Origin: Bacteroidales bacterium
GTDB lineage: Bacteria; Bacteroidota; Bacteroidia; Bacteroidales; JAFGUD01
NCBI GenBank assembly: GCA_016936595.1
Contig: JAFGXO010000171.1
Coordinates: 1,584-65,583, forward strand
DNA: 64,000 bases
Reading direction: 5' to 3'
Of the stretch, positions 2,361-61,470 are shown piece after piece. A program made the translations under genes and the position numbers. How positions within the stretch are numbered: the stretch's first letter is position 1; each line of letters begins with the position of its first letter. The notes under the pieces are model-generated. The model did no database searches. It was not told where the DNA came from and was given only the letters and a program-made list of their open reading frames with translations.

Positions 2361-2492
2361 AGAGAATATAAAACAATACTATCCTGAATGTTTTTTGTAA
2401 TTAGCTTAATTTTAAGTGATTAATGCACCCTAACCCTCTCTGAAAATCGGGACAAGCTATTTTTTAAGGAAGAATTGTAACTCTATAGAAAT

Positions 2493-2551: not shown

Positions 2552-3103
2552 TTACAGTTGATTAATATATTTCACCTCTTCCATACCTTTACTAATAGCT
2601 TCTTCATTAATAGGTATCATGTGATGGTGACGTTCGGGCAATGATTTTTTAAGCCCTTTAATTACATTTTCAAATTTTACAATAGGTTTTACTTTTAAGA
2701 ATGCACCTAAAACAACCATGTTTGCAATTTTTGTATTTCCAAGAGCAGCGGCAACGTTTGCAGCCGAAATCATACAAATATTAATATCTTTACGTTCGGG
2801 GTGTCTGATAATTCCGTTATCATCATATAGTAATAGCCCACCGGGTTTTACAGCCTTTTCAAATTTATCCATAGATTGTTGGTTAAGGATAATAGCTGTG
2901 TCAAAAACTGTAAGAATAGGTGAACTAATTCTTTGGTCGCTAACAATAACAGTAACGTTTGCAGTACCGCCTCTCATTTCGGGTCCGTAAGACGGCATCC
3001 ACGATACTTCTTGGTCTTGCATTATTCCGGAGTATGCCAAAATTTTCCCCATAGAAAGAACACCTTGTCCACCAAATCCGGCAATTATTATTTCTTCTGT
3101 CAT
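2552..3103 (-). CDS. 2-oxoacid:ferredoxin oxidoreductase, gamma subunit
   Basis: 183 aa. The N-terminus IIIAGFGGQGVLSMGKILA and PSYGPEMRGGTANVTV are hallmark motifs of the gamma subunit (POR/KOR family). It is the last gene of the delta-alpha-beta-gamma cluster. Confidence 0.9.
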   Translation of the reverse strand: MTEEIIIAGFGGQGVLSMGKILAYSGIMQDQEVSWMPSYGPEMRGGTANVTVIVSDQRISSPILTVFDTAIILNQQSMDKFEKAVKPGGLLLYDDNGIIRHPERKDINICMISAANVAAALGNTKIANMVVLGAFLKVKPIVKFENVIKGLKKSLPERHHHMIPINEEAISKGMEEVKYINQL

Positions 3104-3118
3104 TTTTTTAAATTTTAA

Positions 3119-3208
3119 TTAAGTTTTTAAAGTTTTAAAGTTTTTAAAGTTTTTAAAGTCTGCTGAAAGTTAATTTTCTTTCAACAATATAACTTTAAAC
3201 TTTAAACT
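3119..3208. repeat. Short tandem (AGTTTTTAA x4) and inverted (AACTTTAAACTTTAAACT) repeats in the beta-gamma intergenic spacer
   Basis: Read directly: AAGTTTTTAAAGTTTTAAAGTTTTTAAAGTTTTTAAAGTC, then hairpin TGAAAG-TTAATTTT-CTTTCA, then AACTTTAAACTTTAAACT, which is the approximate reverse complement of the left repeats. Confidence 0.7.
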
Positions 3209-3210
3209 CA

Positions 3211-3990
3211 TTAATCAAGAGGATCTTCTTTTAGAGTTCCAAGATTATAGTATGGTAACATATTATCTTCAAGCCATTTAATAGATTGAAGAGGTGTTAA
3301 TTTCCAACCAGAATTACAGTTAGAAACTATTTCGACAAAAGCAGTTCCTTTTTTTGCTTTTTGATATTCAAAAGCTTTACGAATTGCTTTTTTAGTTTTA
3401 CGCACTAAAACCGGAGTGTGCACGGCATGACGAGCCACAAAACAAGTTCCGTCTAATTGAGCCACAAGCTCAGTCATTTTAAGCGGATTTCCCATCATTT
3501 GTGTATCTCTTCCATAAGGAGAAGTTGAGGTTTTCATTGCAGGAATAGTAGTAGGAGCCATTTGACCACCTGTCATACCATAAATTCCGTTGTTAATAAA
3601 AATAATTACAATGTTTTCGCCTCTGTTACAAGTATGTATTGTTTCGCCTGTACCAATAGCAGCCAAATCGCCATCGCCTTGATAAGTGAAAACAAATTTT
3701 TCGGGATATACTCGTTTTATTCCGGTAGCCATAGCAGTTGCACGTCCGTGAGCCGCTTCGGCCATATCGATATTCATAAATTCGTAAGACAATACAGAGC
3801 AACCAACCGGAGCAACTCCAATTACATTGTCGGTAATATTCATTTCTTCAATAACTTCGAGTACAAGCCTGTGTGCAACACCATGACCACAACCGGGGCA
3901 ATAGCTCAATGGTTTATCGGTAAAAAGAGGTGTTTTAGAAAAAACCTTATTCTCTTCTTTTATTATATCTTCAAGTTTTAATTCTGCCAT
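3211..3990 (-). CDS. 2-oxoacid:ferredoxin oxidoreductase, beta (TPP-binding) subunit
   Basis: 259 aa. It has an N-terminal CPGCGHG motif and the TPP-binding YQGDGDLAAIG...NNGIYGMTGGQ motif. Confidence 0.92.
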   Translation of the reverse strand: MAELKLEDIIKEENKVFSKTPLFTDKPLSYCPGCGHGVAHRLVLEVIEEMNITDNVIGVAPVGCSVLSYEFMNIDMAEAAHGRATAMATGIKRVYPEKFVFTYQGDGDLAAIGTGETIHTCNRGENIVIIFINNGIYGMTGGQMAPTTIPAMKTSTSPYGRDTQMMGNPLKMTELVAQLDGTCFVARHAVHTPVLVRKTKKAIRKAFEYQKAKKGTAFVEIVSNCNSGWKLTPLQSIKWLEDNMLPYYNLGTLKEDPLD

Positions 3991-7864: not shown

Positions 7865-8989
7865 TTAAATTATTTTTTCAAGATAAGAACTTGTTCCGGT
7901 TTTTAATATTTCTTGGATTACTTTAGCCGTAACATCACCTATTCCGTTAATGCTTGCAATTTGTTTTGGTTGAAGAAATTGTATGTTTTGTTCTATTTTA
8001 GATATTTGATAAGCTGCGTAGCCATATGGATTTTTATGTCCTCGTAATTTTAACAAGTAATCTAAATGCTCAAGAATAACCACAACTAAATCATTTTTAG
8101 AAACAAAACGATAGTATAATTTAGGAGGAATTCGCTTTGGAATTTTAAGATTTGTTGCAATTTTATCAAACAAATAATGAGCAGATTGGTTATAATCTTG
8201 GTGAGCTTCGCCCCATTTACTATTATGTTCGTAAATAATATCAAACTGAGTTGTTAAATCGGAAAAATGTTTATTTATTACGTTCATAAAATAATCTTTT
8301 TGTCGCCCCGGTTTAAGTGTCATTGTTCCAAAAATTACAAAGTCAATACCTACCTCTTTTCCTCTCCGAAGAGTTTCTTCCACCATTTTAGGACTGTCTG
8401 TAATAAATGGGATTAACGGCATTAAAAACATACCAACCGAAATACCGTTTTGTTTAAGCTTTTTAATTAATGTAAATCGTTCAGAAGGGCTTGCTACACC
8501 AGGCTCAAAAATTTTGCTGATATTATCGCTTGCCGACGAAAAACTAAAGCTAACAATTGCTCTGCTTTGATTGTTTATTTTTTTAATGATGTCAATATCT
8601 CGCTCTACGAGAGTTGATTTTGTTAAAATATGTACGGGATATTTGTATTTGTACAAGAGTTCTAATGTTTTACGTGCAAGTTCATATTTTTTTTCTGCCG
8701 GTTGATACGAATCACTAACTCCACCGCCAAGCATCATAAAACTTCGGGGCATGGGTTTTCTCTTTCGTGCCGGATCTAATTCTTTTTGCAAAATTTCAAT
8801 TGCATTTGTTTTTATAGAAATATCTCTGCCAAAATCTCCTTCTACGTAATAACCTTCGGCTCTGCCATCACAATAGGCACAATTATGTGAACAGCCTCTA
8901 TATAAATTTAGCCCGTAATGTGTTAAAAACCAACTTTCAATTTTTTTATTTTTTCTTAGAATTGTTTTTGCTTGTGTTTCGGTTATCAT
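7865..8989 (-). CDS. Radical SAM protein (SPL/PA0069-like) with a C-terminal helix-hairpin-helix
   Basis: 374 aa. It has the CxxxCxxC cluster motif CSHNCAYCDG near the N-terminus and a C-terminal IASINGIGDVTAKVIQEIL HhH-like motif. Confidence 0.8.
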   Translation of the reverse strand: MITETQAKTILRKNKKIESWFLTHYGLNLYRGCSHNCAYCDGRAEGYYVEGDFGRDISIKTNAIEILQKELDPARKRKPMPRSFMMLGGGVSDSYQPAEKKYELARKTLELLYKYKYPVHILTKSTLVERDIDIIKKINNQSRAIVSFSFSSASDNISKIFEPGVASPSERFTLIKKLKQNGISVGMFLMPLIPFITDSPKMVEETLRRGKEVGIDFVIFGTMTLKPGRQKDYFMNVINKHFSDLTTQFDIIYEHNSKWGEAHQDYNQSAHYLFDKIATNLKIPKRIPPKLYYRFVSKNDLVVVILEHLDYLLKLRGHKNPYGYAAYQISKIEQNIQFLQPKQIASINGIGDVTAKVIQEILKTGTSSYLEKII

Positions 8990-8990
8990 C

Positions 8991-9052
8991 TGTTAGGGTT
9001 TTGAGAGTTTCAATTTTCGGGTTTCGGGTTTCGGGGTGCGGGTTTCGGGGTT
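8991..9052. repeat. G-tract intergenic element (TTAGGGTTTT...GGGTTTCGGGTTTCGGGGTGCGGGTTTCGGGG)
   Basis: Five G3-4 runs separated by 3-4-nt loops at 9019-9050, in an otherwise AT-rich spacer. It shares TTAGGGTTT, TTTCGGGTT and TTTCGGGGTG blocks with the element at 17181-17237. Confidence 0.75.
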
Positions 9053-9069
9053 CATATTTTTGTGTCATT

Positions 9070-9897
9070 TTAATAATCGTGTCTGTAGTAAATTCGGTTT
9101 TTGTATTTGTATTTATCAATTTTAAGAATATCCATAACTTTTAATGGTTCATTTTTAACTAAATTTCTGCAGGCTCTATATGCTATCCAATATGAATTTT
9201 TATTGCCGGAATCTGCTAATTTTTGCACAATTTTGTAAACTCTTTCTTTATCAATTCTTGCCCAATCACTTAAATTATTGCCAACAGACGAACGCGGATA
9301 ATCTTTTGATTCTGCAAATAAGTTTTTAATAACTTCAAAACAAAATTCAGGATTTTTTTTCAGCCAACTATTATCAGCAACGGGTCTGATAGATTCGCTT
9401 GCAAACCGCCTTGACATTGGATTATCTGAAGTAACTTGCTTTAAATACCATTTTTTCATTCTATCGGGAAATGTTTTTACAAGTTTACGAACAAAGCCGG
9501 CTGAGCATTCTCTTACTTCCCATTTTTCATCTGTTGCCGCTTGTTCAAAAATTGGTAAAACTTCTTCAATTTTTTTTGTTTCAACGCCATAAATTGAAAT
9601 TATCTGAACGCCAAAACTTCTTACAAATTGCTCAAATTGAATATTTGTATATAAATTAGAAGCAAATTCAAGCACATCTATATCATTTTGTTTAAGCATA
9701 GGATACATTTCAATACCCAATTTTTTAATTATACCATATCTACCGTACGAAATACGCTTTTTTTCAGGAATATCATTTCTAATTATTGAAATAAGTTTGT
9801 CTATTTCAGCTGCAACTTCATCAATAGTCAATACATTTATATGTTTAACTATAGTTTCTGCTAATTTTAAATGAGCTTGATTTATTAGTTGAAACAT
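9070..9897 (-). CDS. HEAT-repeat DNA alkylation repair-like protein (AlkC/AlkD superfamily)
   Basis: 275 aa, all-helical repeat character. DEKWEVRECSAGFVRKL and SSVGNNLSDWARIDKERV resemble conserved blocks of DNA-alkylation-repair (COG4335-type) proteins. The assignment is by memory of motifs only. Confidence 0.55.
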   Translation of the reverse strand: MFQLINQAHLKLAETIVKHINVLTIDEVAAEIDKLISIIRNDIPEKKRISYGRYGIIKKLGIEMYPMLKQNDIDVLEFASNLYTNIQFEQFVRSFGVQIISIYGVETKKIEEVLPIFEQAATDEKWEVRECSAGFVRKLVKTFPDRMKKWYLKQVTSDNPMSRRFASESIRPVADNSWLKKNPEFCFEVIKNLFAESKDYPRSSVGNNLSDWARIDKERVYKIVQKLADSGNKNSYWIAYRACRNLVKNEPLKVMDILKIDKYKYKNRIYYRHDY

Positions 9898-14161: not shown

Positions 14162-15196
14162 TTACAACTTTTTAATATCATCAACAGATAAGCCTGTTTC
14201 TTTAGATATTTCTTCTACTGGTGTCCCTACTTGTAACATCATTTTTGCCATTTTATTTTGAAATGTATGCTTTTCGTGTTCAGCGTTTTCTTTCTCTTGT
14301 AATGCTTTTTCTTTTTCCTGTTGAGCTTTTTCTTTTTCCTGTTGAGCTTTTTCTTTTTCCTGTTGAGCTTTTTCTTTTTCCTGTTGAGCTTTTTGAACTT
14401 CTGTTATCGCCTTTTCTCTTGCTTTCAAAGCCTCTTCTTCTTTCTTTTGAGCCTCCTTCATTTTTTTTATAGCATCATCAATAGCAGAGCGTTCTATTCT
14501 TATTCTATCCCAATAATTATCATAATAGTCCAACTCGTTTTTTGAAAAAGCTGATACTTGCAAATGTTCCAAAGCTTCTTTTATTTCTTCGTCTGCATTA
14601 AAATCTTCATCAACATTGATAGTATTTTCATTTATCTCGGTTAAAAAACGCAACCACAAATTAGTTATTTTCTTTTCTGTAAATGATTTTGGTGTAAACT
14701 TTGGTAGTTCAATAAATATCAATTCAATACCATCAATTACTTCATTAGGAATTTCTTTATGAGCTAATTTATAATGATGATAAAATTTATCTTTATATTT
14801 TTCCTCTGTAAGATAAATATCATCAACTAAACTAAGCCCATAAACGGGCAGTAATTTATCGTATTTACCTCCTCTATCTAACTGTTTTACATACGCTTTA
14901 CCCGAATTAAAAAGCATACGACTCTTAAATGAATTAGTCCAATACATTTGCATTTCCACAATAAACTGTCGGCCAAAATTGTCTGTGCACTTTACATCTA
15001 CCACTGAATGTTTTAATTCGGGAATTTCAGGCAATAACGCAGGATCTTGATAAATTAAACTTTCAATATACTGGTCATCATTTAATGGCAATAGCGAATT
15101 TAAAAAACTTTTCATTATGTTGGCATTCTGACCAAATATTTTACGAAAAGTTAAATCATTTTTTGGATCTAAATATTTTATATTACGAAAGTCCAT
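14162..15196 (-). CDS. Rpn-family recombination-promoting nuclease / PD-(D/E)XK putative transposase with a C-terminal heptad-repeat tail
   Basis: 344 aa. The N-terminus LDPKNDLTFRKIFGQ and the nuclease core VVDVKCTDNFGRQFIVEMQ are typical of the PDDEXK_2/Rpn family. The C-terminus contains (EKAQQEK)x4. Confidence 0.8.
   Translation of the reverse strand: MDFRNIKYLDPKNDLTFRKIFGQNANIMKSFLNSLLPLNDDQYIESLIYQDPALLPEIPELKHSVVDVKCTDNFGRQFIVEMQMYWTNSFKSRMLFNSGKAYVKQLDRGGKYDKLLPVYGLSLVDDIYLTEEKYKDKFYHHYKLAHKEIPNEVIDGIELIFIELPKFTPKSFTEKKITNLWLRFLTEINENTINVDEDFNADEEIKEALEHLQVSAFSKNELDYYDNYWDRIRIERSAIDDAIKKMKEAQKKEEEALKAREKAITEVQKAQQEKEKAQQEKEKAQQEKEKAQQEKEKALQEKENAEHEKHTFQNKMAKMMLQVGTPVEEISKETGLSVDDIKKL
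14305..14388. repeat. Perfect 21-bp tandem repeat x4 (GCTTTTTCTTTTTCCTGTTGA) inside the Rpn-like CDS
   Basis: Four identical contiguous copies were read directly (14305-14325, -14346, -14367, -14388), plus degenerate flanking copies. They are in frame, 7 codons per unit. Confidence 0.9.
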
Positions 15197-16736: not shown

Positions 16737-17186
16737 ATGAAACTTAAAAAAATACATACAAGCAAATTGATTGAATTTTTCAGCGTTTCGACAATCTACA
16801 GCATTGAGTTACCGTTAATTGAAGCCGGTATTAGTGCCGGATTCCCTTCGCCGGCTGATGATTTTTTAGATATTTCAATCGACTTAAATAAAGAGCTTAT
16901 TAAAAATCCTTCGGCTACATTTTTTGGAAGAGTTAACGGCGATTCTATGAAAGATCTTGGTATTGATGATGGCGATTTACTTATCATAGATAAAAGTATT
17001 GAACCTCAAACCGGTAAAATTGCTGTTTGTTTTATTGATGGTGAATTTACTTTAAAAACTATTCAATTTGAAGCTAATTTATGCTGGCTTGTTCCGGCTA
17101 ACGAAAAATATAAACCTATAAAAGTTACTCCCGATAATGAATTTATTGTATGGGGTATAGTAAAACACGTAATTAAATCTTTTTAG
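16737..17186 (+). CDS. umuD: Translesion polymerase V accessory subunit UmuD (S24 LexA-like peptidase)
   Basis: 149 aa. It has ISAGFPSPADDF, the catalytic Ser in VNGDSMKD and a Lys in GEFTLKT. It lies immediately upstream of umuC. Confidence 0.85.
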   Translation: MKLKKIHTSKLIEFFSVSTIYSIELPLIEAGISAGFPSPADDFLDISIDLNKELIKNPSATFFGRVNGDSMKDLGIDDGDLLIIDKSIEPQTGKIAVCFIDGEFTLKTIQFEANLCWLVPANEKYKPIKVTPDNEFIVWGIVKHVIKSF

Positions 17187-17237
17187 GGTTTCGGGTTGTG
17201 AGCTGCAAGATACGGGTTTTCGGGGTGAGAGGAGAGG
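17181..17237. repeat. G-tract intergenic element, second copy, abutting the umuD stop codon
   Basis: TTTTAGGGTTTCGGGTTGTGAGCTGCAAGATACGGGTTTTCGGGGTGAGAGGAGAGG. It shares sequence blocks with 8991-9052 and fills most of the unusual 107-bp umuD-umuC gap. Confidence 0.75.
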
Positions 17238-17293
17238 TATTCTGGTTTTAAAAAATTGCAAGCTATTGGTTGTTAATTACAAATTACTTATAA

Positions 17294-18556
17294 ATGTTCG
17301 CTTTAGTTGATTGTAATAATTTTTACGCATCATGCGAGCGGGTTTTTCGCCCCGACTTGAATGGCAAACCCGTTGTAATACTCTCAAACAACGATGGTTG
17401 CGTTATTGCCCGAAGCAACGAAGCAAAAGCTCTTGATATTCCTATGGGTGCTCCGGCTTTTAAATTTGCCGAAATCTTTAAACAAAACAACGTTAATGTT
17501 TTCTCTTCTAATTTTGCTCTTTATGGCGATATGAGTGCCAGAGTAATGAATATTTTATCTGAAATTGCTCCCGAAATTGAAATTTACAGCATCGATGAAG
17601 CTTTTCTTAAATTTACAGGTTTCCAAAATTACGATTTAAACGATTACGGTTTAATGATTCGTAAAAAAATACTTAAACATACCGGTATTCCGGTTAGTGT
17701 TGGGTTTGCTCCCACAAAAGCTCTATCAAAAGTTGCCGTTCATGTTGCAAAAAAATTCCCCGAACGAACTAAAGGAGTGTATGTTATCGATAACGAAGAA
17801 AAAAGAATAAAAGCTTTAAAGTGGCTACAAATTGAAGATGTGTGGGGTATTGGACGAAAACATGCCGAAAAATTAAAAAATGTTGGAATCTTAAATGCTC
17901 TTCGATTTACCGAAACATCGGATTCGTGGATAAAAAAACACATGTCGGTATTAGGACTTCGTCTAAAAAATGAACTCCTCGGAAAATCAACTCTTGATTT
18001 AGATAAAGTTAAAAACAAAAAAAGTATAGCCACAACACGAACTTTTGAAAAAAATTATGCCGATTTTGAACTCATAAAAGAACGAGTTGTTACTTTTGCC
18101 GTAACTTGTTCTGAAAAACTACGTAAGCAAAAATCAAACTGCAATTCAATAATGATTTTTTTACACACAAATTGGCACAGAAAAGACTTACCACAAATAA
18201 ACCCAAATATTGTAATACAACTACCCTACCCTACAAACTCGGCTATTGAAATAGCAAAATTTGCCGTAAAAGGATTAAAACAAATTTTTAAAGAAGGATA
18301 TTTATACAAAAAAGCAGGTGTTGTAGTTATGAATTTTACGCCCGAAAATCCACAACAATTATCTATTTTTGAAAACTCAAATCCTAAGCACAAAAAGCTT
18401 ATGAAAACTATAGATCATATTAACAACAATATTGGAGCAAAAAAACTTAAACTTGCAGCTCAGGATTTAGAAAGAACATGGAAAATGAATCAAGAAAAAA
18501 TTTCGCCTCGATACACAACAAAAATCAACGAAATTTTAAAAATAAAAACCGATTAA
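17294..18556 (+). CDS. umuC: Y-family DNA polymerase V catalytic subunit UmuC
   Basis: 420 aa. MFALVDCNNFYASCERVFRPDL...VVILSNNDGCVIARS...YSIDEAF are canonical UmuC/DinB palm motifs. Confidence 0.9.
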   Translation: MFALVDCNNFYASCERVFRPDLNGKPVVILSNNDGCVIARSNEAKALDIPMGAPAFKFAEIFKQNNVNVFSSNFALYGDMSARVMNILSEIAPEIEIYSIDEAFLKFTGFQNYDLNDYGLMIRKKILKHTGIPVSVGFAPTKALSKVAVHVAKKFPERTKGVYVIDNEEKRIKALKWLQIEDVWGIGRKHAEKLKNVGILNALRFTETSDSWIKKHMSVLGLRLKNELLGKSTLDLDKVKNKKSIATTRTFEKNYADFELIKERVVTFAVTCSEKLRKQKSNCNSIMIFLHTNWHRKDLPQINPNIVIQLPYPTNSAIEIAKFAVKGLKQIFKEGYLYKKAGVVVMNFTPENPQQLSIFENSNPKHKKLMKTIDHINNNIGAKKLKLAAQDLERTWKMNQEKISPRYTTKINEILKIKTD

Positions 18557-55820: not shown

Positions 55821-56336
55821 TTATGTGAAAATTAGTTTAAGTCTTTTTTCATCAATTTTTTCGATATTGATTTTAGTGTTGTATTTTTCGCCTATTTGAG
55901 ATAGTATATTTTTAGCTAATTCAATTAATCCACGTGAGGAGATATAGGTTAAAATTAATTCGTTTTCATTTATCCAATCAAATTCAAAAACAGGAGGTGT
56001 TGCATTTAGCACGCTTTCGGTCATAAAATCGTGAATAGAAGGAATATTTTTTATAAATTCACGGGCTGATGAAAACTGAAAAGAGGGGTAAACCTCAGAA
56101 ATATATGAAAAGATCCAATATTTTGCATATTCAGATAATAGATCATCTTTGGATATATTTAGTACTTGGGCTGAATTTTTTAAAATGCCCATAACTTTAT
56201 CATCAGAAACATCATCTCTTATTAAAAAAACATGATCTTTTTCAAAGCCTGTTCTATAAAGAATTTCTTCCCATTTTTCAACTCCATAAGTTGAGATAAT
56301 CATTCTTTCGGCGGCTTTAACAATGGTTCCTTTCAT
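55821..56336 (-). CDS. Stand-alone H-NOX (haem NO/O2-binding, HNOB) domain protein
   Basis: 171 aa. The N-terminus MKGTIVKAAERMIISTYGVEKWEEIL fits the HNOB opening. Proximal His102 is in PSIHDF (codon 56031-56033), Pro114/115 is in ATPP, and the YxSxR haem-propionate motif is Y131-I-S133-S-R135. Confidence 0.85.
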   Translation of the reverse strand: MKGTIVKAAERMIISTYGVEKWEEILYRTGFEKDHVFLIRDDVSDDKVMGILKNSAQVLNISKDDLLSEYAKYWIFSYISEVYPSFQFSSAREFIKNIPSIHDFMTESVLNATPPVFEFDWINENELILTYISSRGLIELAKNILSQIGEKYNTKINIEKIDEKRLKLIFT

Positions 56337-56339
56337 AGC

Positions 56340-59333
56340 TTAATTATTCATATTTTTTAGTTCTTGAATTTGTTTTTTAAGAATATAAATTTCTGCATCT
56401 TTTTGTTCAAGTAATACATCTAATTTTTCTAATTTTGTTCTAAATTCACGTGCTTTATGTTTATTTTTTTCTGCTTCTGCTTTGTATTGTTTATCTTTAG
56501 AAATTAATTGATTTCGCAAAGTTAAATCCTGAATTAAAGCGTATAAAAACAATTCATCTTTTTGAGTAAATGAAACCAAAGTAACATTTGCAGGGAATTC
56601 GGTTCCGTTACTTTTTTTATGCACCCATTCAAATGAATTAAAACCTTTTTCGATGGCGATATTAATCATTTCTGCAACTTTTTTCATTGAATTTTGACCA
56701 TCGGGCTGAAGTTCAGGAGATACAAATGATGGGGATATTCCAATAAATTCGTCTTTACTTTCAAACTCAAATAGTTCTAAAGTGGCATTGTTACAATCAA
56801 TAAAATTGCCGTTTTTAATTACTTGAATTGAATCAGAAGAATGCTCAAAAAGAAATTTAAATTGTTCGGCTTGATATTCGGCTCTTTTAACCAATTCTTC
56901 ATTTTTTTTGAGTTGCAAATTATTTCTTTCAAGTGATTTTTTTAAAACATCTTCAGAAGCATGAATTTTTTGGGATAATTCCTGAGCAGCTTTTTTCTCT
57001 TTAAGAGCTAAATCAGAAACAGATTGTAATTCATTTATTTTTTTAAGAATTTCTTGTTCTTTAATTTGAAGTTCATTTGTTTGAGTAAGTAATTCTTCTT
57101 GCATTTCAATTTGTTCGGTAATTTCAATAATTATGCTTATAAACTTAATTACCTCACCTGTTTTATCAGTAAAAGGCACAATATACAGCTTGAACCAGAA
57201 TATTTTATTTGTTTTAACAAATTTTAATTGATGTTGAGTTTCTTTGCCTTCAATTAAATCTTGCCATAAATTTAAATCAGCCAGCCTACTTTCTTCATTG
57301 TAATCAAATTCAGATATATGATGTCCAATAATGTCGTTGCTTTCCATCTCAAAAGTTTTATTTAATCTTTCGGGAACCGACACAATGTTACCATCAACAT
57401 CTAACTCAATAATAAATGCGGCTTTATTAATTGCAGAAAGCAGGTTATTAAGCTCAGATTCTCTCTGAGTTGCTCTTTCTTGAGTTGCCTGAAGCTCTTC
57501 AAGGTTTTGCCTTAACTCTTCTTCTTTAAGAGACCGTTGTTCGGCTTCAATTTTTGCCGAATCAAGAAGCTTAACAGTTCGTTGATTTATTTTTGCAATA
57601 GAGATAGTTGAAGCAATTGATTCGGCAATTTTTTCAACAAATACTATTTGATGTTTTTCTAACTTATTAAAAGAAGCAAGCTCGATAACACCCAAAACAT
57701 TTTCTTCAAACTTAAGCGGAACAATAAGCAAACTTCGAGGATTAGCACCACCCAAGCCTGAAGTAATACTGATATAATCTTCGGGTATTTCGGTCATGTA
57801 AATTGTTGCCTTTTCAACAGCACAAGTTCCAATTAACCCTTCTCCCATTAAAAATTCTTTTCTCTTTTTCCTTTCTTTACTATAAGCATAAGAAGCAATT
57901 AATTCAATAATTTTATCTTTATGTTCATCATTTATAATAAACATTCCTCCTTGATTTGCTTCTAAATAATTAACTAAGTCTTTAATAATAAGAGAAGCTA
58001 ATTCAGAAATATCTTTTGTTGATTGACGCAAAACATCTGAGAATTTAGCAATACCGGTATTAACCCACTCTCTAATTTTATCCTCTTCTTTTCTTTTTAC
58101 ATCTTCAATTTGGGCATTTTTCAAATTATCTCTTAAAAGAATAAGAGCATTACCCAGTTCATCTTGGTCGCTAACAGGCGAATAATTATATTTAAAATTA
58201 CCATTACCAATTTCAGAAGCAAACACGGAGGCATCTTTGAGCGATTTTACAACCAGACCAATAGTGTCGGACATTTGTACTAATTCGGAAAAATATTTAG
58301 GCTCAAAAACAAAATCGGGTATTCTACCAGTTTTAAGAGGTTCAATAAATTCTTTCAATTCCTGAATTCTACGAAATAAAATTCGAGGAAGGAAAATATT
58401 AATAAGCATAAAAAACAAGAAAAAAGAAACAGCGAGATATAAAATAAACTTTTTAGTTTCAACTCTTTTTGATGTAACATCTTGAACGATATAATTTACT
58501 GAAGTAATAAATGCGTCTTCAAAAGAATTATTTATATCACTCCATTGCATCATTAAATTGGCTTGGTCGTTCAAAAAGAGTTTTCTGTCGATATTAACTA
58601 ATTTACTGAAAGATTGTTTATAATCATTTACACTTGAAATAAATTCGCTAGAGATGTTATTTGAAACAGGAATAAATTGAGTTGTGTCGATAACACCTGT
58701 ATCTCTAACGATTTGTTGTTGGCGAACGTATGAATTAAGGTACGTAAAATAATCTAAATATTCTTCGTAGCTGTCAAAATTTGGAGAATTAAGATAAGCT
58801 AAGAAATTATTGTTCATTGAATTGAGATAGCGTAGAATTTGTGGATCATTAGTGGAGCTTATTGCAGTTTGATAAAAAGAGAAACAGTTGCCAATTATTC
58901 CGGTTTTTTTAGACCCCCGAAGGAACAGATTATGAGAGATTTGGAAAAAAACATCTTTAATTTGTTCAATATTTTCGGTGTAAAGTTGAATATCATCACC
59001 TAACTCCAATTTTTCGGTAAGCTCCAAGGCTTTTAAAGAATCCATGGTTAATTTTGCATCAGAAAGGATAATTTCTTGTCTTTTAAGGAATTTACTTTGT
59101 TCGGTTTGAAAAAAAACAGGATCGTTTTCGTAATGAATTAAGAAATCTTTTTGGGCTTGCTGTGCTTTAGTCCATTTCAAATAGGCTTTTCTAAATGAAC
59201 TTGAATAATCGATATAATTATATGTTTTTGATACGTCGTCAACGAGTCCGATGAACACTATTAGAAAAAAAACTGACGTAATAGTTAATATAAGAATAAG
59301 AAATAGACGAATACTTATTTTTTTCATGAGCAT
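56340..59333 (-). CDS. Membrane multi-sensor protein: TM, ~270-aa extracytoplasmic domain, TM, HAMP, GAF, coiled coil, PAS, coiled coil, PAS, coiled coil; no recognisable output domain
   Basis: 997 aa. TM1 is LFLILILTITSVFFLIVFIGL and TM2 is FILYLAVSFFLFFMLINIFL. The HAMP-like segment follows. The GAF region is LANQGGMFIIND...GEGLIGTCAVEKATIYM...LIVPLKFEENVLGVIELAS. Two PAS-like segments are present (FIIELDVDGNIVSV... and FKFLFEHSSDSIQVI...FEWVHKKSNGTEFPANV). I found no H-box/HATPase, GGDEF/EAL, MCP or HTH motif. Its stop lies 3 nt before the H-NOX start. Confidence 0.8.
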   Translation of the reverse strand: MLMKKISIRLFLILILTITSVFFLIVFIGLVDDVSKTYNYIDYSSSFRKAYLKWTKAQQAQKDFLIHYENDPVFFQTEQSKFLKRQEIILSDAKLTMDSLKALELTEKLELGDDIQLYTENIEQIKDVFFQISHNLFLRGSKKTGIIGNCFSFYQTAISSTNDPQILRYLNSMNNNFLAYLNSPNFDSYEEYLDYFTYLNSYVRQQQIVRDTGVIDTTQFIPVSNNISSEFISSVNDYKQSFSKLVNIDRKLFLNDQANLMMQWSDINNSFEDAFITSVNYIVQDVTSKRVETKKFILYLAVSFFLFFMLINIFLPRILFRRIQELKEFIEPLKTGRIPDFVFEPKYFSELVQMSDTIGLVVKSLKDASVFASEIGNGNFKYNYSPVSDQDELGNALILLRDNLKNAQIEDVKRKEEDKIREWVNTGIAKFSDVLRQSTKDISELASLIIKDLVNYLEANQGGMFIINDEHKDKIIELIASYAYSKERKKRKEFLMGEGLIGTCAVEKATIYMTEIPEDYISITSGLGGANPRSLLIVPLKFEENVLGVIELASFNKLEKHQIVFVEKIAESIASTISIAKINQRTVKLLDSAKIEAEQRSLKEEELRQNLEELQATQERATQRESELNNLLSAINKAAFIIELDVDGNIVSVPERLNKTFEMESNDIIGHHISEFDYNEESRLADLNLWQDLIEGKETQHQLKFVKTNKIFWFKLYIVPFTDKTGEVIKFISIIIEITEQIEMQEELLTQTNELQIKEQEILKKINELQSVSDLALKEKKAAQELSQKIHASEDVLKKSLERNNLQLKKNEELVKRAEYQAEQFKFLFEHSSDSIQVIKNGNFIDCNNATLELFEFESKDEFIGISPSFVSPELQPDGQNSMKKVAEMINIAIEKGFNSFEWVHKKSNGTEFPANVTLVSFTQKDELFLYALIQDLTLRNQLISKDKQYKAEAEKNKHKAREFRTKLEKLDVLLEQKDAEIYILKKQIQELKNMNN

Positions 59334-59643
59334 ACTATTTTATTAATACAAAATAAGAGAAACAAAACACATCTATTTAAAAATAATTTTAAAAGTCTTT
59401 GTTCAAAAAAATGATATTTTGACAAATTTATAAATTTTTATTTTAAATAAAAAAGGTAAAAAAAAGGCAGATACAAATATTTTGTTCCACAAGCATTAAT
59501 ATTCAATTAATCAACACATTACAAGTATTGTGATTATCTAAAAAAAAAAGAATAAAAAGTATGTACAGCAATATATTTTTCGATTTTTTCGATTTTTTTG
59601 ATATTATTGCCAAATATAAAACTTATCAGTAAAAATTTCAGTT

Positions 59644-61470
59644 ATGAAAAAAATTACGTTTTTGTTTATATCTTTTTTCCTTTTTCACCTAACAATATTA
59701 AGCCAAGGAAAAGATGCGATGATACAAGAAGACACAAACATTTATCCAATTGAGCTTGATTTTCAGATAAATAATAAAAGTGCAGATATAAATGATGGTT
59801 TTGTTATTGTAGATGTTTATGGAGGAGTTCCGCCATACAAGTATTACTGGTCAAAACCTGACTTATCTTTAAATACATCAATTGGTGAAAAATTAACTGA
59901 AGGGCAGAAATATGAACTCACTGTTTATGATTCAAATGGAGATAGTGCAACTGCAGAAATAATGGTTCCTGTAAAGTCTTTAAACGAAAGATTTAACTCT
60001 GCGTTGGTTCCAGTTGTAAATATGATGAGTAAATTTATTATGGCTGATATATTTGCGTTGCTTAATTTGTACGACCCCATAATAAGAGATGATCAAGGTG
60101 AAATTTTACGTTCACCAAACGGAGATCCACAAAAAGTGAGTATTCCATTTATTGTAGTTTGGTTAATAATTGGAGCAACATTTTTCACTTTATATTTAGG
60201 ATTTATAAATATTAGGGGTTTTAAACTTGCGATACAACATGTAGCCGGCAAATTTGACAAGAAGGAGCAAAAAGGAGAAGTATCTCATTTTCAGGCTTTA
60301 ACAACTGCACTTTCGGCAACAGTAGGGTTAGGAAACATAGCCGGAGTAGCAATTGCAATAGCCATTGGCGGACCCGGGGCAACTTTTTGGATGATTGTTG
60401 CCGGTTTATTAGGCATGTCAACAAAATTTGCTGAGTGTACTTTAGGTGTAAAATACAGAAATATAAATAAAGACGGAGTTGTTTCAGGTGGCCCCATGTA
60501 CTATATAAATAAAGCGTTTAAAGACCGAAAAATGGGTGGTTTAGGAAAAGTTTTAGCAGCAGTTTTTGCTGTGTTAATAATTGGAGGTTCGCTTGGCGGA
60601 GGGAATATGTTTCAGGCAAATCAGGCGTTTGCACAATTAAGCAATATGATGCCACAAATTAGCAACTTTGGAGCGTTGTTTGGAGTTATTTTAGCTGTTT
60701 TAGTTGGATCGGTTGTATTAGGAGGTATAAAAAGTATTGCAAAAGTTACAGACAAAATTGTTCCTTTTATGGCTTTATTTTATGTGCTTGTTGCATTTAT
60801 TATTATTATCATGAACATTAAAAATTCGGGACAAGCATTTCATTTAATTATTAATGGAGCTTTTAGTGCATCGGCATTAAAAGGAGGTGTTATTGGAGTT
60901 ATGATTGTAGGATTTCAAAGAGCAGCATTCTCAAATGAAGCCGGGGTTGGATCTGCTTCGGTTGCTCATTCGGCAGTAAAAACAGATGAGCCTGTTACAG
61001 AAGGACTTGTATCCTTATTAGAACCATTTATAGATACAGTTGTAATATGTACAATGACAGCATTAGTAATAATTTTTACCGGATTTTATAATAATCCGGG
61101 GGAATTAAACGGAGTTGAATTAACTTCGGCGGCTTTTGGCTCAGTTTTTTCATGGTTTCCATACTTGTTAATAGTTGCCATAATGCTATTTGCTTTTTCA
61201 ACAATGATTTCGTGGTCATACTATGGTTTAAACGGCTTTAAATATTTATTTGGCGGCATTATTAAAAACGAAAAAACTCTTAGAAATATATATTATGCAA
61301 TCTTTTTAATATTCATAGTAATAGGCTCTGCTTCAAGTTTAGGTGCAGTGATTGATTTTTCGGATATGATGATTTTAAGCATGGCATTACCTAATATATT
61401 TGCTCTTTATGTGCTTTCTAAAGAATTAAAACTTGATTTAAATAAATACTTGAAAAAAATAAAAAAATAA
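59644..61470 (+). CDS. Alanine/glycine:cation symporter (AGCS family) with an N-terminal signal peptide and SprB-repeat-like domain
   Basis: 608 aa. The core motifs are [30 protein letters not shown] and [11 protein letters not shown]. Residues ~25-105 read [24 protein letters not shown]...[26 protein letters not shown] and resemble a SprB repeat. Confidence 0.85.

What the first reader, a model, noticed from the sequence alone, without database searches (positions are those of the whole stretch)
8991..9052. G-tract (GGGTTTCGGG) intergenic element with canonical G-quadruplex spacing, one of a small repeat family
An AT-rich genome here has an 80-bp spacer containing GGGTTTCGGGTTTCGGGGTGCGGGTTTCGGGG (9019-9050). 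That is five G3-4 runs with 3-4-nt loops, which satisfies the G3+N1-7 x4 quadruplex rule, and it is preceded by TTAGGGTTTT. A second copy built from the same blocks (TTAGGGTTT, TTTCGGGTT, TTTCGGGGTG, GAGAG) lies at 17181-17237. A possible inverted, degenerate third copy lies at 2425-2457 (reverse complement GAGAGGGTTAGGGTGC). The first two copies both lie between co-directional genes linked to DNA damage, namely the alkylation-repair-like/radical-SAM-HhH pair and umuD/umuC. They have opposite orientation relative to transcription, which argues for a DNA-level or orientation-independent role, or for a small mobile or REP-like repeat, rather than a simple RNA attenuator.
Basis: seen in the sequence. 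Interest (0 to 1): 0.55.

Follow-up and report, generated by a model that had tools for sequence, protein, structure and literature searches.

The report
Strain-specific G-rich heptamer repeat between genes
The G-tract is a short tandem repeat of the 7-base unit TTTCGGG in the spacer between two co-transcribed genes of an uncultured Bacteroidales bacterium; it is a bacterial example of an already described class of quadruplex-capable heptamer repeats, and its G-runs are missing from the closest relative, so it is real but fairly ordinary.

Summary
The sequence is as described. Window 9015-9053 is (TTTCGGG)x5.6, and it is the only canonical G-quadruplex motif in 64 kb (0 of 400 shuffles give one). 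It is a heptanucleotide simple-sequence repeat, not a REP/MITE-like element: it has no inverted repeats, no insertion signature and no near-identical dispersed copies.

The second locus (17186-17227) shares only about 2 + 2 heptamer units (E~0.002). However, these are the only two of 37 non-coding segments with significant 7-nt periodicity, so the two loci are alike in kind. The proposed third copy (2425-2457) is not supported.

The opposite orientations match the position/strand rule published for G-rich heptamer repeats in Xanthomonas and Nostoc (Rehm 2015). [quoted passage not shown]

The sister lineage (~90% nt identity in genes) has homologous spacers without G-runs at both loci. More distant relatives have 17-44 nt spacers or other repeats. 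Identical (CCCGAAA)n leader arrays occur upstream of unrelated genes in other contigs, one of them Flavobacteriaceae, where the copy number is polymorphic.

Best reading: a slippage-driven, fast-evolving repeat that gives an unstructured C/A-rich leader. Quadruplex potential is incidental, and the link to DNA damage is unsupported.

The parts
9015..9053 (+). Tandem heptamer array (TTTCGGG)x5.6. G-runs are at 9019, 9026, 9033, 9040 and 9047. The canonical quadruplex motif is 9019-9050. The G-rich strand is the template (non-coding) strand of the operon, so the mRNA carries (CCCGAAA)n.
   Evidence: TRF; PQS regex and G4Hunter 1.92; 0 of 400 shuffles; ViennaRNA gquad predicts a 3-layer quadruplex
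8993..9001 (+). Isolated degenerate unit TTAGGGTTT, 4 nt from the radical-SAM start codon. On the sense strand it is AAACCCTAA, part of the A-rich translation-initiation region. That region is partly conserved in the sister lineage (CTCAAAACTTTACC) and in L130 (CTATCAAAACTAAAC).
8990..9069 (-). 80-nt spacer inside the operon. The sense RNA has A36 C27 G9 U8, has lag-7 periodicity and is predicted to be essentially unstructured.
   Evidence: composition; MFE -0.5 kcal/mol over 101 nt; lag-7 z=4.9
7865..8989 (-). Downstream cistron: radical SAM + HHH_8 protein (SplB-like, annotated 'DNA repair photolyase'), 374 aa.
9070..9897 (-). Upstream cistron: DNA_alkylation/HEAT-repeat protein, 275 aa. It is absent from the sister lineage.
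17186..17198 (+). Locus 2, first island GGGTTTCGGGTTG (about 2 units). It overlaps the G of the umuD TAG stop codon. The G-rich strand is the coding strand.
17214..17227 (+). Locus 2, second island GGGTTTTCGGGGTG (about 2 units), followed by GAGAGGAGAGG.
17187..17293 (+). 107-nt umuD-umuC spacer. It is G31/C10 on the sense strand and has lag-7 periodicity. It is the only other heptamer-periodic non-coding segment in the window.
   Evidence: z=3.6
16737..17186 (+). umuD (Peptidase_S24), 149 aa.
17294..18556 (+). umuC (Y-family polymerase; IMS, IMS_C, DUF4113), 420 aa.

Best explanation
The element is a G-rich heptanucleotide simple-sequence repeat, (TTTCGGG)~5.6. It sits in the 80-nt spacer of a two-gene operon (DNA_alkylation-like gene, then radical-SAM/HhH gene) in an uncultured, ~31% GC Bacteroidales bacterium.

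Origin (inferred). The array arose and is resized by replication slippage and unit homogenisation inside a spacer that was already a degenerate 7-nt-periodic array. It is specific to this lineage.

Likely effect (inferred). The array is transcribed as (CCCGAAA)n, a C/A-rich, G-poor, structure-free leader directly upstream of the downstream cistron. In Bacteroidota, which do not rely on Shine-Dalgarno pairing, such a leader would be compatible with, and possibly helpful for, internal initiation. This last point rests on my own knowledge of Bacteroidota translation initiation, not on a paper read here.

Quadruplex potential. The motif lies on the template DNA strand and follows from the unit sequence. 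It is not a conserved regulatory device.

Locus 2 (umuD-umuC spacer) is a second, weaker heptamer-periodic spacer carrying about 2 + 2 of the same units on the coding strand, starting at the stop codon.

Together the two loci follow the position/strand rule described for quadruplex-forming heptameric SSRs of Xanthomonas and Nostoc.

Shown: the repeat anatomy, its non-randomness, its position and strand, lack of RNA structure, absence of mobile-element hallmarks, loss or non-conservation of G-runs in relatives, recurrence of the same array elsewhere, and copy-number polymorphism there. Inferred: the slippage origin, co-transcription, and the leader/linker role.
For: 1. Anatomy. Period-7 array. 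It is the only PQS in the window.
2. Periodicity. Loci 1 and 2 are the only 2 of 37 non-coding segments with lag-7 periodicity. The sister-lineage spacers keep a weaker lag-7 signal (p~0.001).
3. Fast turnover. The sister lineage is colinear over 20 kb, with 89-93% nt identity in genes. Its spacers are homologous at both loci but lack the G-runs. Relatives at ~80% aa identity have 17-44 nt spacers with no element. L005 has (GAATAATA)x15 in the same spacer. There is no PQS in about 80 kb of non-redundant relative sequence. Nearly all long intergenic spacers between the two lineages fail to align.
4. [quoted passage not shown]
5. Same unit, same configuration elsewhere. (CCCGAAA)x6 abuts the ATG of a dciA-like gene (L226). 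About 20 units end 5 nt before an ATG in a Flavobacteriaceae contig (L149). There the array differs by a 15-nt double unit between contigs that encode the identical protein.
6. Related phage contigs also differ in unit number.
7. The sense RNA is unstructured (MFE -0.5 kcal/mol over 101 nt) with C27/G9.
8. No Rfam match, even at E<=1. No inverted repeats.
Against: - Genome-wide abundance, a hallmark of the published class, could not be measured. Only two loci in 64 kb are known.
- In Xanthomonas 83% of such repeats are conserved at the same locus between species. Here 0 of 2 keep their G-runs in the sister lineage.
- No length polymorphism was seen at this locus itself. Only one population was available, and the window and L001 are identical.
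- Two independent spacers in one genome acquiring the same 10-13-mers (E~0.002) is not fully explained by independent slippage. It hints at a shared process or shared selection.
- Persistence of 7-nt periodicity in both lineages could reflect selection rather than decay of an ancestral array.
- Co-transcription and any effect on translation are untested.
Confidence: 0.7

Rival explanations
1. Functional quadruplex/i-motif switch. The G4 on the template strand (locus 1) and on the coding strand or mRNA (locus 2) modulates transcription or translation of DNA-damage genes, for example in response to damage or to G4-binding factors.
For: Locus 1 is a strong predicted G4 former: five G3-4 runs, 3-4 nt loops, G4Hunter 1.92, and a gquad MFE structure. 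Related heptamer repeats form K+-dependent G4s in vitro (PMC4692102). G4s have been linked to DNA repair in Deinococcus radiodurans (PMC12607872, title and abstract listing only). Both loci flank repair genes.
Against: The G-runs are absent at both loci in the sister lineage, which has the same radical-SAM, umuD and umuC genes. More distant relatives lack the spacer altogether. Locus 2 is not a canonical PQS because it has an 18-nt loop, and no gquad structure is predicted. The same array lies upstream of unrelated genes elsewhere. Rehm et al. found no enrichment for any functional class and no regulatory role.
Confidence: 0.1
2. Binding array read in a 7-nt register. The heptamer units are sites for an RNA- or DNA-binding factor. 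Candidates are ribosomal protein S1 or Csp-like proteins on the leader RNA, Rho on the C-rich G-poor RNA, or a regulator of repair genes on the DNA. Selection would then maintain the periodicity while the unit sequence drifts.
For: Lag-7 periodicity is present at both loci in both lineages although the unit sequence has changed. The sense RNA of locus 1 is C-rich, G-poor and unstructured, which is a rut-like composition. MacGregor 2015 proposed S1, Csp or CsrA binding for TAACTGA heptamer repeats just upstream of start codons, including in Bacteroidetes (PMC4679880). (CCCGAAA)n abuts start codons in L226 and L149.
Against: The two loci present opposite strands to the transcript, so a single RNA-binding factor cannot read both. 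In the sister lineage the periodicity falls below z=3 when whole segments are tested, and it could be a decaying relic. No binding factor has been identified. Relatives do well with 17-44 nt spacers.
Confidence: 0.12
3. Small dispersed mobile repeat (REP/MITE-like), or a family spread by gene conversion, of which loci 1 and 2 are two copies.
For: Two loci in one genome share 10-13-mers that the sister lineage lacks at both positions. Both have the G-rich strand on the same DNA strand.
Against: There are no inverted repeats or hairpins. There is no discrete insertion or target duplication relative to the sister spacers, which align end to end. Similarity between the loci is limited to low-complexity units (39 nt at 74%). 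The third copy is rejected. There are no other copies in 64 kb.
Confidence: 0.05
4. mRNA-mRNA pairing. Because the loci are transcribed in opposite senses, the two operon transcripts are complementary over about 17 nt (UUUUAGGGUUUCGGGUU with AACCCGAAACCCGAAAA). They could therefore cross-regulate.
For: The predicted duplex energy is -49.3 kcal/mol against a background of -29.8 +/- 6.8 for other 80-nt windows (z about -2.9).
Against: Several unrelated windows score better (down to -55.6). The complementarity is lost in the sister lineage. It is simply the mirror image of the repeat similarity, and no precedent was examined here.
Confidence: 0.03

Closest known systems
Quadruplex-forming G-rich heptameric SSRs of Xanthomonas (GGGAATC) and Nostoc (GGGGA(C/T)T), Rehm et al. 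2015, PLoS One (PMC4692102)
   Same: Tandem 7-nt unit with a G3-4 run, about 4-6 units, and therefore a G4 motif. Non-coding location, preferentially between co-directional ORFs. [quoted passage not shown] Length and sequence vary between close relatives, there is no association with mobile elements, and the function is unknown.
   Different: The unit is GGGTTTC. No bacterial report of this unit was found in the held literature, where TTTCGGG appears only as a Mimulus telomere variant. The host is a low-GC Bacteroidales bacterium. Genome-wide abundance is unknown. The G-runs are not conserved in the sister lineage, whereas 83% of loci are conserved between Xcc and Xac. In vitro G4 formation is untested.
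TAACTGA and other heptamer direct repeats in intergenic regions of Beggiatoaceae, Cyanobacteria and some Bacteroidetes (MacGregor 2015, PMC4679880); cyanobacterial STRR heptamers (the Calothrix heptanucleotide repeats mentioned in PMC4692102; the name STRR is from my own knowledge)
   Same: Direct heptamer repeats in sense orientation a few to tens of nt upstream of start codons. They occur in Bacteroidetes, sometimes alongside other heptamer repeats in the same spacer. Close relatives have the same gene neighbourhood but shorter spacers without the repeats. That is the pattern seen here.
   Different: The unit is different and is G/C-run-containing, so it is G4/i-motif capable. Only two loci are known here. 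No candidate binding protein has been identified.
REP/BIME and MITE-type intergenic repeats
   Same: Short intergenic elements, often lying between co-directional genes of an operon.
   Different: Those elements are imperfect palindromes or carry terminal inverted repeats, and they occur as many similar copies. This element has no inverted repeats and is a tandem direct repeat.
Contingency-locus SSRs (phase variation)
   Same: A slippage-prone tandem repeat whose unit number can change. Such change was seen for the same unit in L149 versus L311 and in phage contigs.
   Different: The repeat is not inside an ORF and does not lie between the hexamers of any sigma-70-type promoter match (that scan does not cover Bacteroidota-type promoters). 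It is not associated with surface or variable genes. No on/off logic is evident.

Membership tests
G-rich heptameric quadruplex-forming SSR (Rehm 2015 class) | Tandem repeat of a 7-nt unit containing a G3-4 run | tested here: met
   TRF finds period 7, 5.6 copies, unit TTTCGGG at 9015-9053. Locus 2 has about 2 + 2 units.
G-rich heptameric quadruplex-forming SSR (Rehm 2015 class) | At least four G-tracts with short loops (PQS) | tested here: met
   Locus 1 has five G3-4 runs with loops of 3-4 nt. Locus 2 does not qualify, because its loops are 4, 18 and 5 nt.
G-rich heptameric quadruplex-forming SSR (Rehm 2015 class) | [quoted passage not shown] | tested here: met
   At locus 1 the array starts 26 nt upstream of the radical-SAM ATG, on the non-coding strand. 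At locus 2 the first G-run overlaps the umuD TAG, on the coding strand. The rule is quoted from PMC4692102.
G-rich heptameric quadruplex-forming SSR (Rehm 2015 class) | Unit consensus GGGNATC / GGGGA(C/T)T | tested here: not met
   The unit here is GGGTTTC. This is the same kind of element, not the same sequence family.
G-rich heptameric quadruplex-forming SSR (Rehm 2015 class) | Highly abundant and dispersed over the genome (tens to more than 100 loci) | not testable with these tools
   Only 64 kb of the genome is available. There are two loci per 64 kb.
G-rich heptameric quadruplex-forming SSR (Rehm 2015 class) | K+-dependent G4 formation in vitro | not testable with these tools
   Only predictions are available: G4Hunter 1.92 and a ViennaRNA gquad structure.
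G-rich heptameric quadruplex-forming SSR (Rehm 2015 class) | The repeat is usually retained at the same locus in a related species | tested here: not met
   The sister lineage has homologous spacers without G3 x4 runs at both loci. Only two C-runs survive at locus 1.
Heptamer direct repeats upstream of start codons (MacGregor 2015 TAACTGA type) | Direct heptamer repeats, sense orientation, within about 1-43 nt of the downstream start codon | tested here: met
   At locus 1 the (CCCGAAA)n array on the sense strand ends 26 nt from the ATG, and a further degenerate unit ends 4 nt from it. L226 and L149 place the same unit 0-5 nt from an ATG.
Heptamer direct repeats upstream of start codons (MacGregor 2015 TAACTGA type) | Unit TAACTGA | tested here: not met
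   The unit is CCCGAAA.
REP / MITE-like mobile intergenic repeat | Palindromic core or terminal inverted repeats | tested here: not met
   There are 0 inverted-repeat pairs in 8900-9150, and only trivial AT-rich ones at locus 2.
REP / MITE-like mobile intergenic repeat | Multiple similar full-length copies; presence/absence with clean boundaries or a target-site duplication relative to relatives | tested here: not met
   Inter-locus similarity is 39 nt at 74%. The spacers align end to end with the sister lineage, with no discrete insertion.
Known structured RNA family (Rfam) | Covariance-model match | tested here: not met
   No match at gathering thresholds over the whole window, and none at E<=1 for either locus.
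Phase-variable contingency SSR | Unit-number polymorphism at this locus within a population, with the repeat inside an ORF or promoter spacer | tested here: inconclusive
   The window and L001 are identical, and only one population was sampled. The repeat lies between cistrons, not in an ORF. Polymorphism was shown only for analogous arrays.

The most novel reading that the evidence does not exclude
Heptamer-periodic leader arrays, of which (CCCGAAA)n is one sequence state, may form a Bacteroidota-wide class of cis-elements. They would sit between cistrons and be read in a 7-nt register by an RNA-binding factor (S1/Csp-like, or Rho). They would replace Shine-Dalgarno-type signals for initiation or polarity control at internal cistrons. 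The G-run version would add a quadruplex on the template strand that couples expression of repair genes to DNA or replication stress. The persistence of 7-nt periodicity at both loci in two lineages, despite unit turnover, would then be due to selection.
Probability: 0.1. Interest if true: 0.6.

Novelty: new member of a known kind. Interest (0 to 1): 0.3.

Why it matters
The finding extends the little-studied class of quadruplex-capable heptameric SSRs to low-GC Bacteroidota, with a new unit (GGGTTTC / CCCGAAA). That class was described in Xanthomonas and Nostoc, and its function is still unknown.

It also shows that the published position/strand rule holds in a third phylum. The puzzling opposite orientation of the two copies is the expected pattern, not evidence for a mobile or orientation-independent element.

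The comparison with a ~90%-identical sister genome gives a clean natural experiment. The genes and the 7-nt periodicity are the same, but the G-runs are present in one lineage and absent in the other. This argues that quadruplex potential is dispensable here.

If the minority reading is right, and a factor reads the array in a 7-nt register, it would bear on how Bacteroidota initiate translation at internal cistrons without Shine-Dalgarno pairing.

Tried and rejected
The hits were almost entirely GC-rich genomes or conserved coding sequence (Collinsella, Pseudomonas, actinomycetes). The one Bacteroidales hit (L062) is coding sequence.

2. The metagenome scan with the 22-mer TTTTMGGGTTTCGGGTTKYGRG was also capped. 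It was dominated by one metagenome (Ga0307489) full of TTTAGGG/TTTCGGG mixed arrays, which I read as eukaryotic telomere-variant repeats (TTTCGGG is a Mimulus telomere variant). Only a handful of low-GC, prokaryote-like contigs were useful (L149, L226, L168, L176/L202).

3. The third copy at 2425-2457 was rejected.

4. A small ORF across the array (ATGAACCCCGAA..., 20 codons) was rejected. The sister lineage truncates it after 10 codons and changes its sequence, as read from the spacer sequences. The 57-aa and 85-aa ORFs overlap real genes.

5. Internal promoter or terminator. Only one sigma-70-like match touches the spacer, in a region that scores below shuffle expectation overall. The single 'terminator' on the + strand is a G-T-pair artefact of the repeat. 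Bacteroidota-type promoters are not covered by the tool.

6. Rfam found nothing.

7. Cluster look-ups for more strains gave only one sister population, with identical spacers in six contigs. No array-length polymorphism could therefore be tested at this locus.

8. Trans mRNA-mRNA pairing is strong but not exceptional.

9. A general claim that all spacers in this genome are heptamer arrays was rejected. Only 2 of 37 segments are. Other spacers carry 8-, 9- or 11-nt periodicities.

Full report
WHAT IS THERE

The window is ~31% GC. At 9015-9053 the plus strand reads TTTTCGGGTTTCGGGTTTCGGGGTGCGGGTTTCGGGGTTC. Tandem Repeats Finder calls this a period-7 array of 5.6 copies with unit TTTCGGG. It is the only G3+N1-7 x4 motif on either strand of the 64 kb window, with G4Hunter 1.92. 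None of 400 composition-preserving shuffles contains such a motif. GGGTTTCGGG with up to one mismatch occurs 6 times against 1.1 expected. An independent Logan assembly of run SRR13394436 carries the identical spacer (L001). The observation at the stated coordinates is therefore real and non-random.

CONTEXT

The array lies in an 80-nt spacer (8990-9069) between two minus-strand genes.
- Upstream cistron: a DNA_alkylation/HEAT protein (9070-9897).
- Downstream cistron: a radical-SAM + HHH_8 protein (7865-8989).

The G-rich strand is therefore the template strand, and the mRNA carries (CCCGAAA)n. The array ends 26 nt before the downstream ATG. A further degenerate unit (AAACCCTAA) ends 4 nt before it.

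The sense RNA has A36 C27 G9 U8 and is predicted to be essentially unstructured. Its MFE is -0.5 kcal/mol over 101 nt, as expected from its composition. Rfam has no match at gathering thresholds or at E<=1. There are no inverted repeats.

The organism is an uncultured Bacteroidales bacterium. Cluster mates of both flanking proteins are named 'MAG... [Bacteroidales bacterium]' (MBN2664134.1, MBN2664141.1).

THE OTHER COPIES

Locus 2 (umuD-umuC spacer, 17187-17293) carries GGGTTTCGGGTTG starting at the G of the umuD TAG. It also carries GGGTTTTCGGGGTG 18 nt further on. Here the G-rich strand is the coding strand.

- The best local alignment between the loci is 39 nt at 74% identity, E~0.002-0.003 within the window.
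- The TTAGGGTTT block is not significant on its own. At locus 2 it is partly the conserved coding end of umuD.
- Locus 2 is not a canonical quadruplex motif because its central loop is 18 nt.
- An independent test supports kinship in kind. Of 37 non-coding segments of at least 50 nt in the window, exactly two show significant lag-7 autocorrelation, and they are these two spacers (z 4.9 and 3.6).

The proposed third copy (2425-2457) has no detectable similarity to either locus. It lies in a 128-nt indel relative to the sister genome.

COMPARATIVE EVIDENCE

A sister lineage is available as L002, L127 and L307-L310, from ERR150877xx runs and ERZ28505417. It is colinear with the window over about 20 kb. 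Nucleotide identity in genes is 89-93%, and 77-85% at third codon positions.

At both loci its spacers are homologous, sharing flanks and scattered blocks. Over the aligned core of spacer 1, my count from the alignment is about 66% identity. These spacers lack the G-runs. Locus 1 keeps only AACCCTAAAACCCGAAC, and locus 2 reads AAAAGTGAGAAGTGA...CAAGTTTTAAAGGAGTAAGATG. They retain a weaker 7-nt periodicity (p~0.001). That signal falls below z=3 when whole segments are tested.

Further observations from relatives:
- The sister lineage has also lost the DNA_alkylation gene.
- Relatives at about 80% aa identity have spacers of 26, 17 and 44 nt with no element.
- A 74% relative has (GAATAATA)x15 in the same spacer.
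- Another relative has (ACTATCTCA)x2.7 just upstream of the radical-SAM ATG.
- No quadruplex motif exists in about 80 kb of non-redundant relative sequence.
- Nearly every long intergenic spacer fails to align between the two lineages.
- Other operon-internal spacers carry different 9-nt repeats in the two lineages.

The spacers therefore turn over fast. The G-run state is lineage-specific, and three perfect consecutive units point to recent expansion or homogenisation.

THE SAME UNIT ELSEWHERE

The collection scans were largely swamped. The genome scan returned GC-rich chance or coding hits. The metagenome scan returned telomere-variant arrays that I read as eukaryotic. A few low-GC contigs are informative.

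- L226 has (CCCGAAA)x6 abutting the ATG of a dciA-like gene, downstream of recF.
- L149 comes from a Flavobacteriaceae organism; its best named relatives are Mesonia, Christiangramia and Salegentibacter at about 70% identity. It has about 20 units ending 5 nt before an ATG.
- Contigs encoding the identical downstream protein differ by a 15-nt double unit. This demonstrates length instability of this array type.
- Related viral contigs also differ in unit number.
- In low-GC contigs the arrays are mostly intergenic. They lie closer to the ORF that is 5' on the G-rich strand (crude ORF calls, redundant contigs).

COMPARISON WITH WHAT IS KNOWN

Rehm et al. 2015 (PMC4692102) describe G-rich heptameric SSRs: GGGAATC in Xanthomonas and GGGGA(C/T)T in Nostoc. 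Their features are:
- over-represented in non-coding DNA between aligned ORFs;
- about four units preferred;
- G4-forming in vitro;
- not linked to mobile elements or to any functional gene class;
- variable between close relatives;
- function unknown, with polymerase slippage on about 7-nt segments suggested as the origin.

Locus 1 and locus 2 fit this rule exactly.

MacGregor 2015 (PMC4679880) describes TAACTGA and other heptamer direct repeats just upstream of start codons, including in Bacteroidetes. There, close relatives have the same neighbourhood but shorter, repeat-free spacers. The same pattern is seen here.

The differences from these classes are as follows. The unit GGGTTTC was not found in the held bacterial literature. 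Genome-wide abundance is untested. The G-runs are not conserved in the sister lineage, whereas 83% of Xanthomonas loci are conserved.

MECHANISM

Shown:
- a tandem direct repeat with no mobile-element hallmarks;
- lineage-specific G-runs;
- length polymorphism of the same array type elsewhere;
- an unstructured C/A-rich sense RNA.

Inferred:
- The array arises and resizes by replication slippage within an already heptamer-periodic spacer.
- It is co-transcribed with both cistrons.
- Its tolerated, and possibly useful, property is a structure-free, G-poor leader ahead of the downstream start codon. This is plausible in a phylum that does not depend on Shine-Dalgarno pairing. That last point is my own knowledge of established work on Bacteroidota translation initiation, not tested or read here.

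The quadruplex motif on the template strand is a by-product of the unit sequence.

I give this reading 0.7. The rivals and their confidences are:
- a genuine G4 switch on repair genes, 0.1;
- a 7-nt-register binding array (S1, Csp, Rho or a regulator), 0.12;
- a mobile REP/MITE-like family, 0.05;
- mRNA-mRNA pairing between the two operons, 0.03.

VERDICT

It is a new member, with a new unit and in a new phylum, of a known kind of element. Interest is 0.3.

Noticed in passing
window 3090-3215 (minus-strand sense); L307 15698-15927: The spacer between the TPP_enzyme_C and POR (gamma) genes of a 2-oxoacid:ferredoxin oxidoreductase operon contains tandem 9-mers. These differ between the two lineages: (ACTTTAAAA)x4-6 in the window, versus (AGTTTAGAT)x4.6 plus (AAACTCGAT)x3.2 in the sister. 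In the window an upstream (GTTTAAA)n stretch is roughly complementary to the downstream repeat.
   Followed up: partly
L005 3471-3593: A 74%-aa relative (Bacteroidales MAG GCA_016938685.1) fills the same DNA_alkylation / radical-SAM spacer (186 nt) with an octamer array, (GAATAATA)x15. So the same spacer holds a different repeat in this lineage.
   Followed up: partly
window 9070-9897 vs L002 2613-3000 / L307 9613-10000: The DNA_alkylation/HEAT gene is present in the window and in the 74-80% relatives. In the ~90%-identical sister lineage about 290 nt of AT-rich non-coding DNA takes its place. The boundary lies within about 10 nt of the gene's stop codon, next to the repeat.
   Followed up: partly
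window 14271-14417 vs L307 5254-5309: A 21-nt in-frame tandem repeat near the 3' end of a PDDEXK_2-family gene has 5.9 copies in the window but 2.7 in the sister lineage. This is a coding VNTR.
   Followed up: no
   Followed up: no
L254, L261, L265, L270, L297 and L176, L202, L280, L292, L293 (viral and metagenome contigs): Two groups of low-GC viral contigs carry (GGGTTTC)n arrays of 3-6 units at the same intergenic position. The arrays lie just upstream of AT-rich, palindrome-containing sequences that look like promoters or operators. Unit number differs between otherwise near-identical contigs.
   Followed up: partly
L134-L252, mostly metagenome Ga0307489: Dozens of short contigs consist of mixed TTTAGGG / TTTCGGG / TTCAGGG heptamer arrays at 45-60% GC. 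They look like eukaryotic (plant- or algal-type) telomere-variant or subtelomeric repeats. They swamp any pattern search for this unit.
   Followed up: no
L149 2084-2440: Upstream of the (CCCGAAA)~20 array in the Flavobacteriaceae contig there is a duplicated segment of about 120 nt, rich in words such as GAATATCGAATACTGAATATCGAATAG and GTACGATTTACGAAGT. These resemble the low-complexity words in L005 (GATTGAATAACTGAATGAC, ACGAGTTTACGAGT). The L005 stretch contains the TAACTGA heptamer of MacGregor 2015.
   Followed up: no
window 59576-59602: (TTTTTCGAT)x3 lies about 45 nt upstream of the ORF starting at 59644, in a divergent intergenic region.
   Followed up: no
window ~56000-58000: Cumulative GC skew falls steadily from position 1 and turns upward near 56-58 kb, which suggests a replication origin or terminus nearby. 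Both G-rich arrays lie on the plus strand, which is the C-rich strand of that replichore.
   Followed up: no
L180, L217, L221 (metagenome contigs): In some higher-GC contigs (GGGTTTC)n is followed by its own reverse complement, giving a long hairpin. One of these lies directly after what looks like a tRNA 3' end (read by eye; not checked with the tRNA finder). The same unit may therefore also be used as arms of terminator-like hairpins.
   Followed up: no
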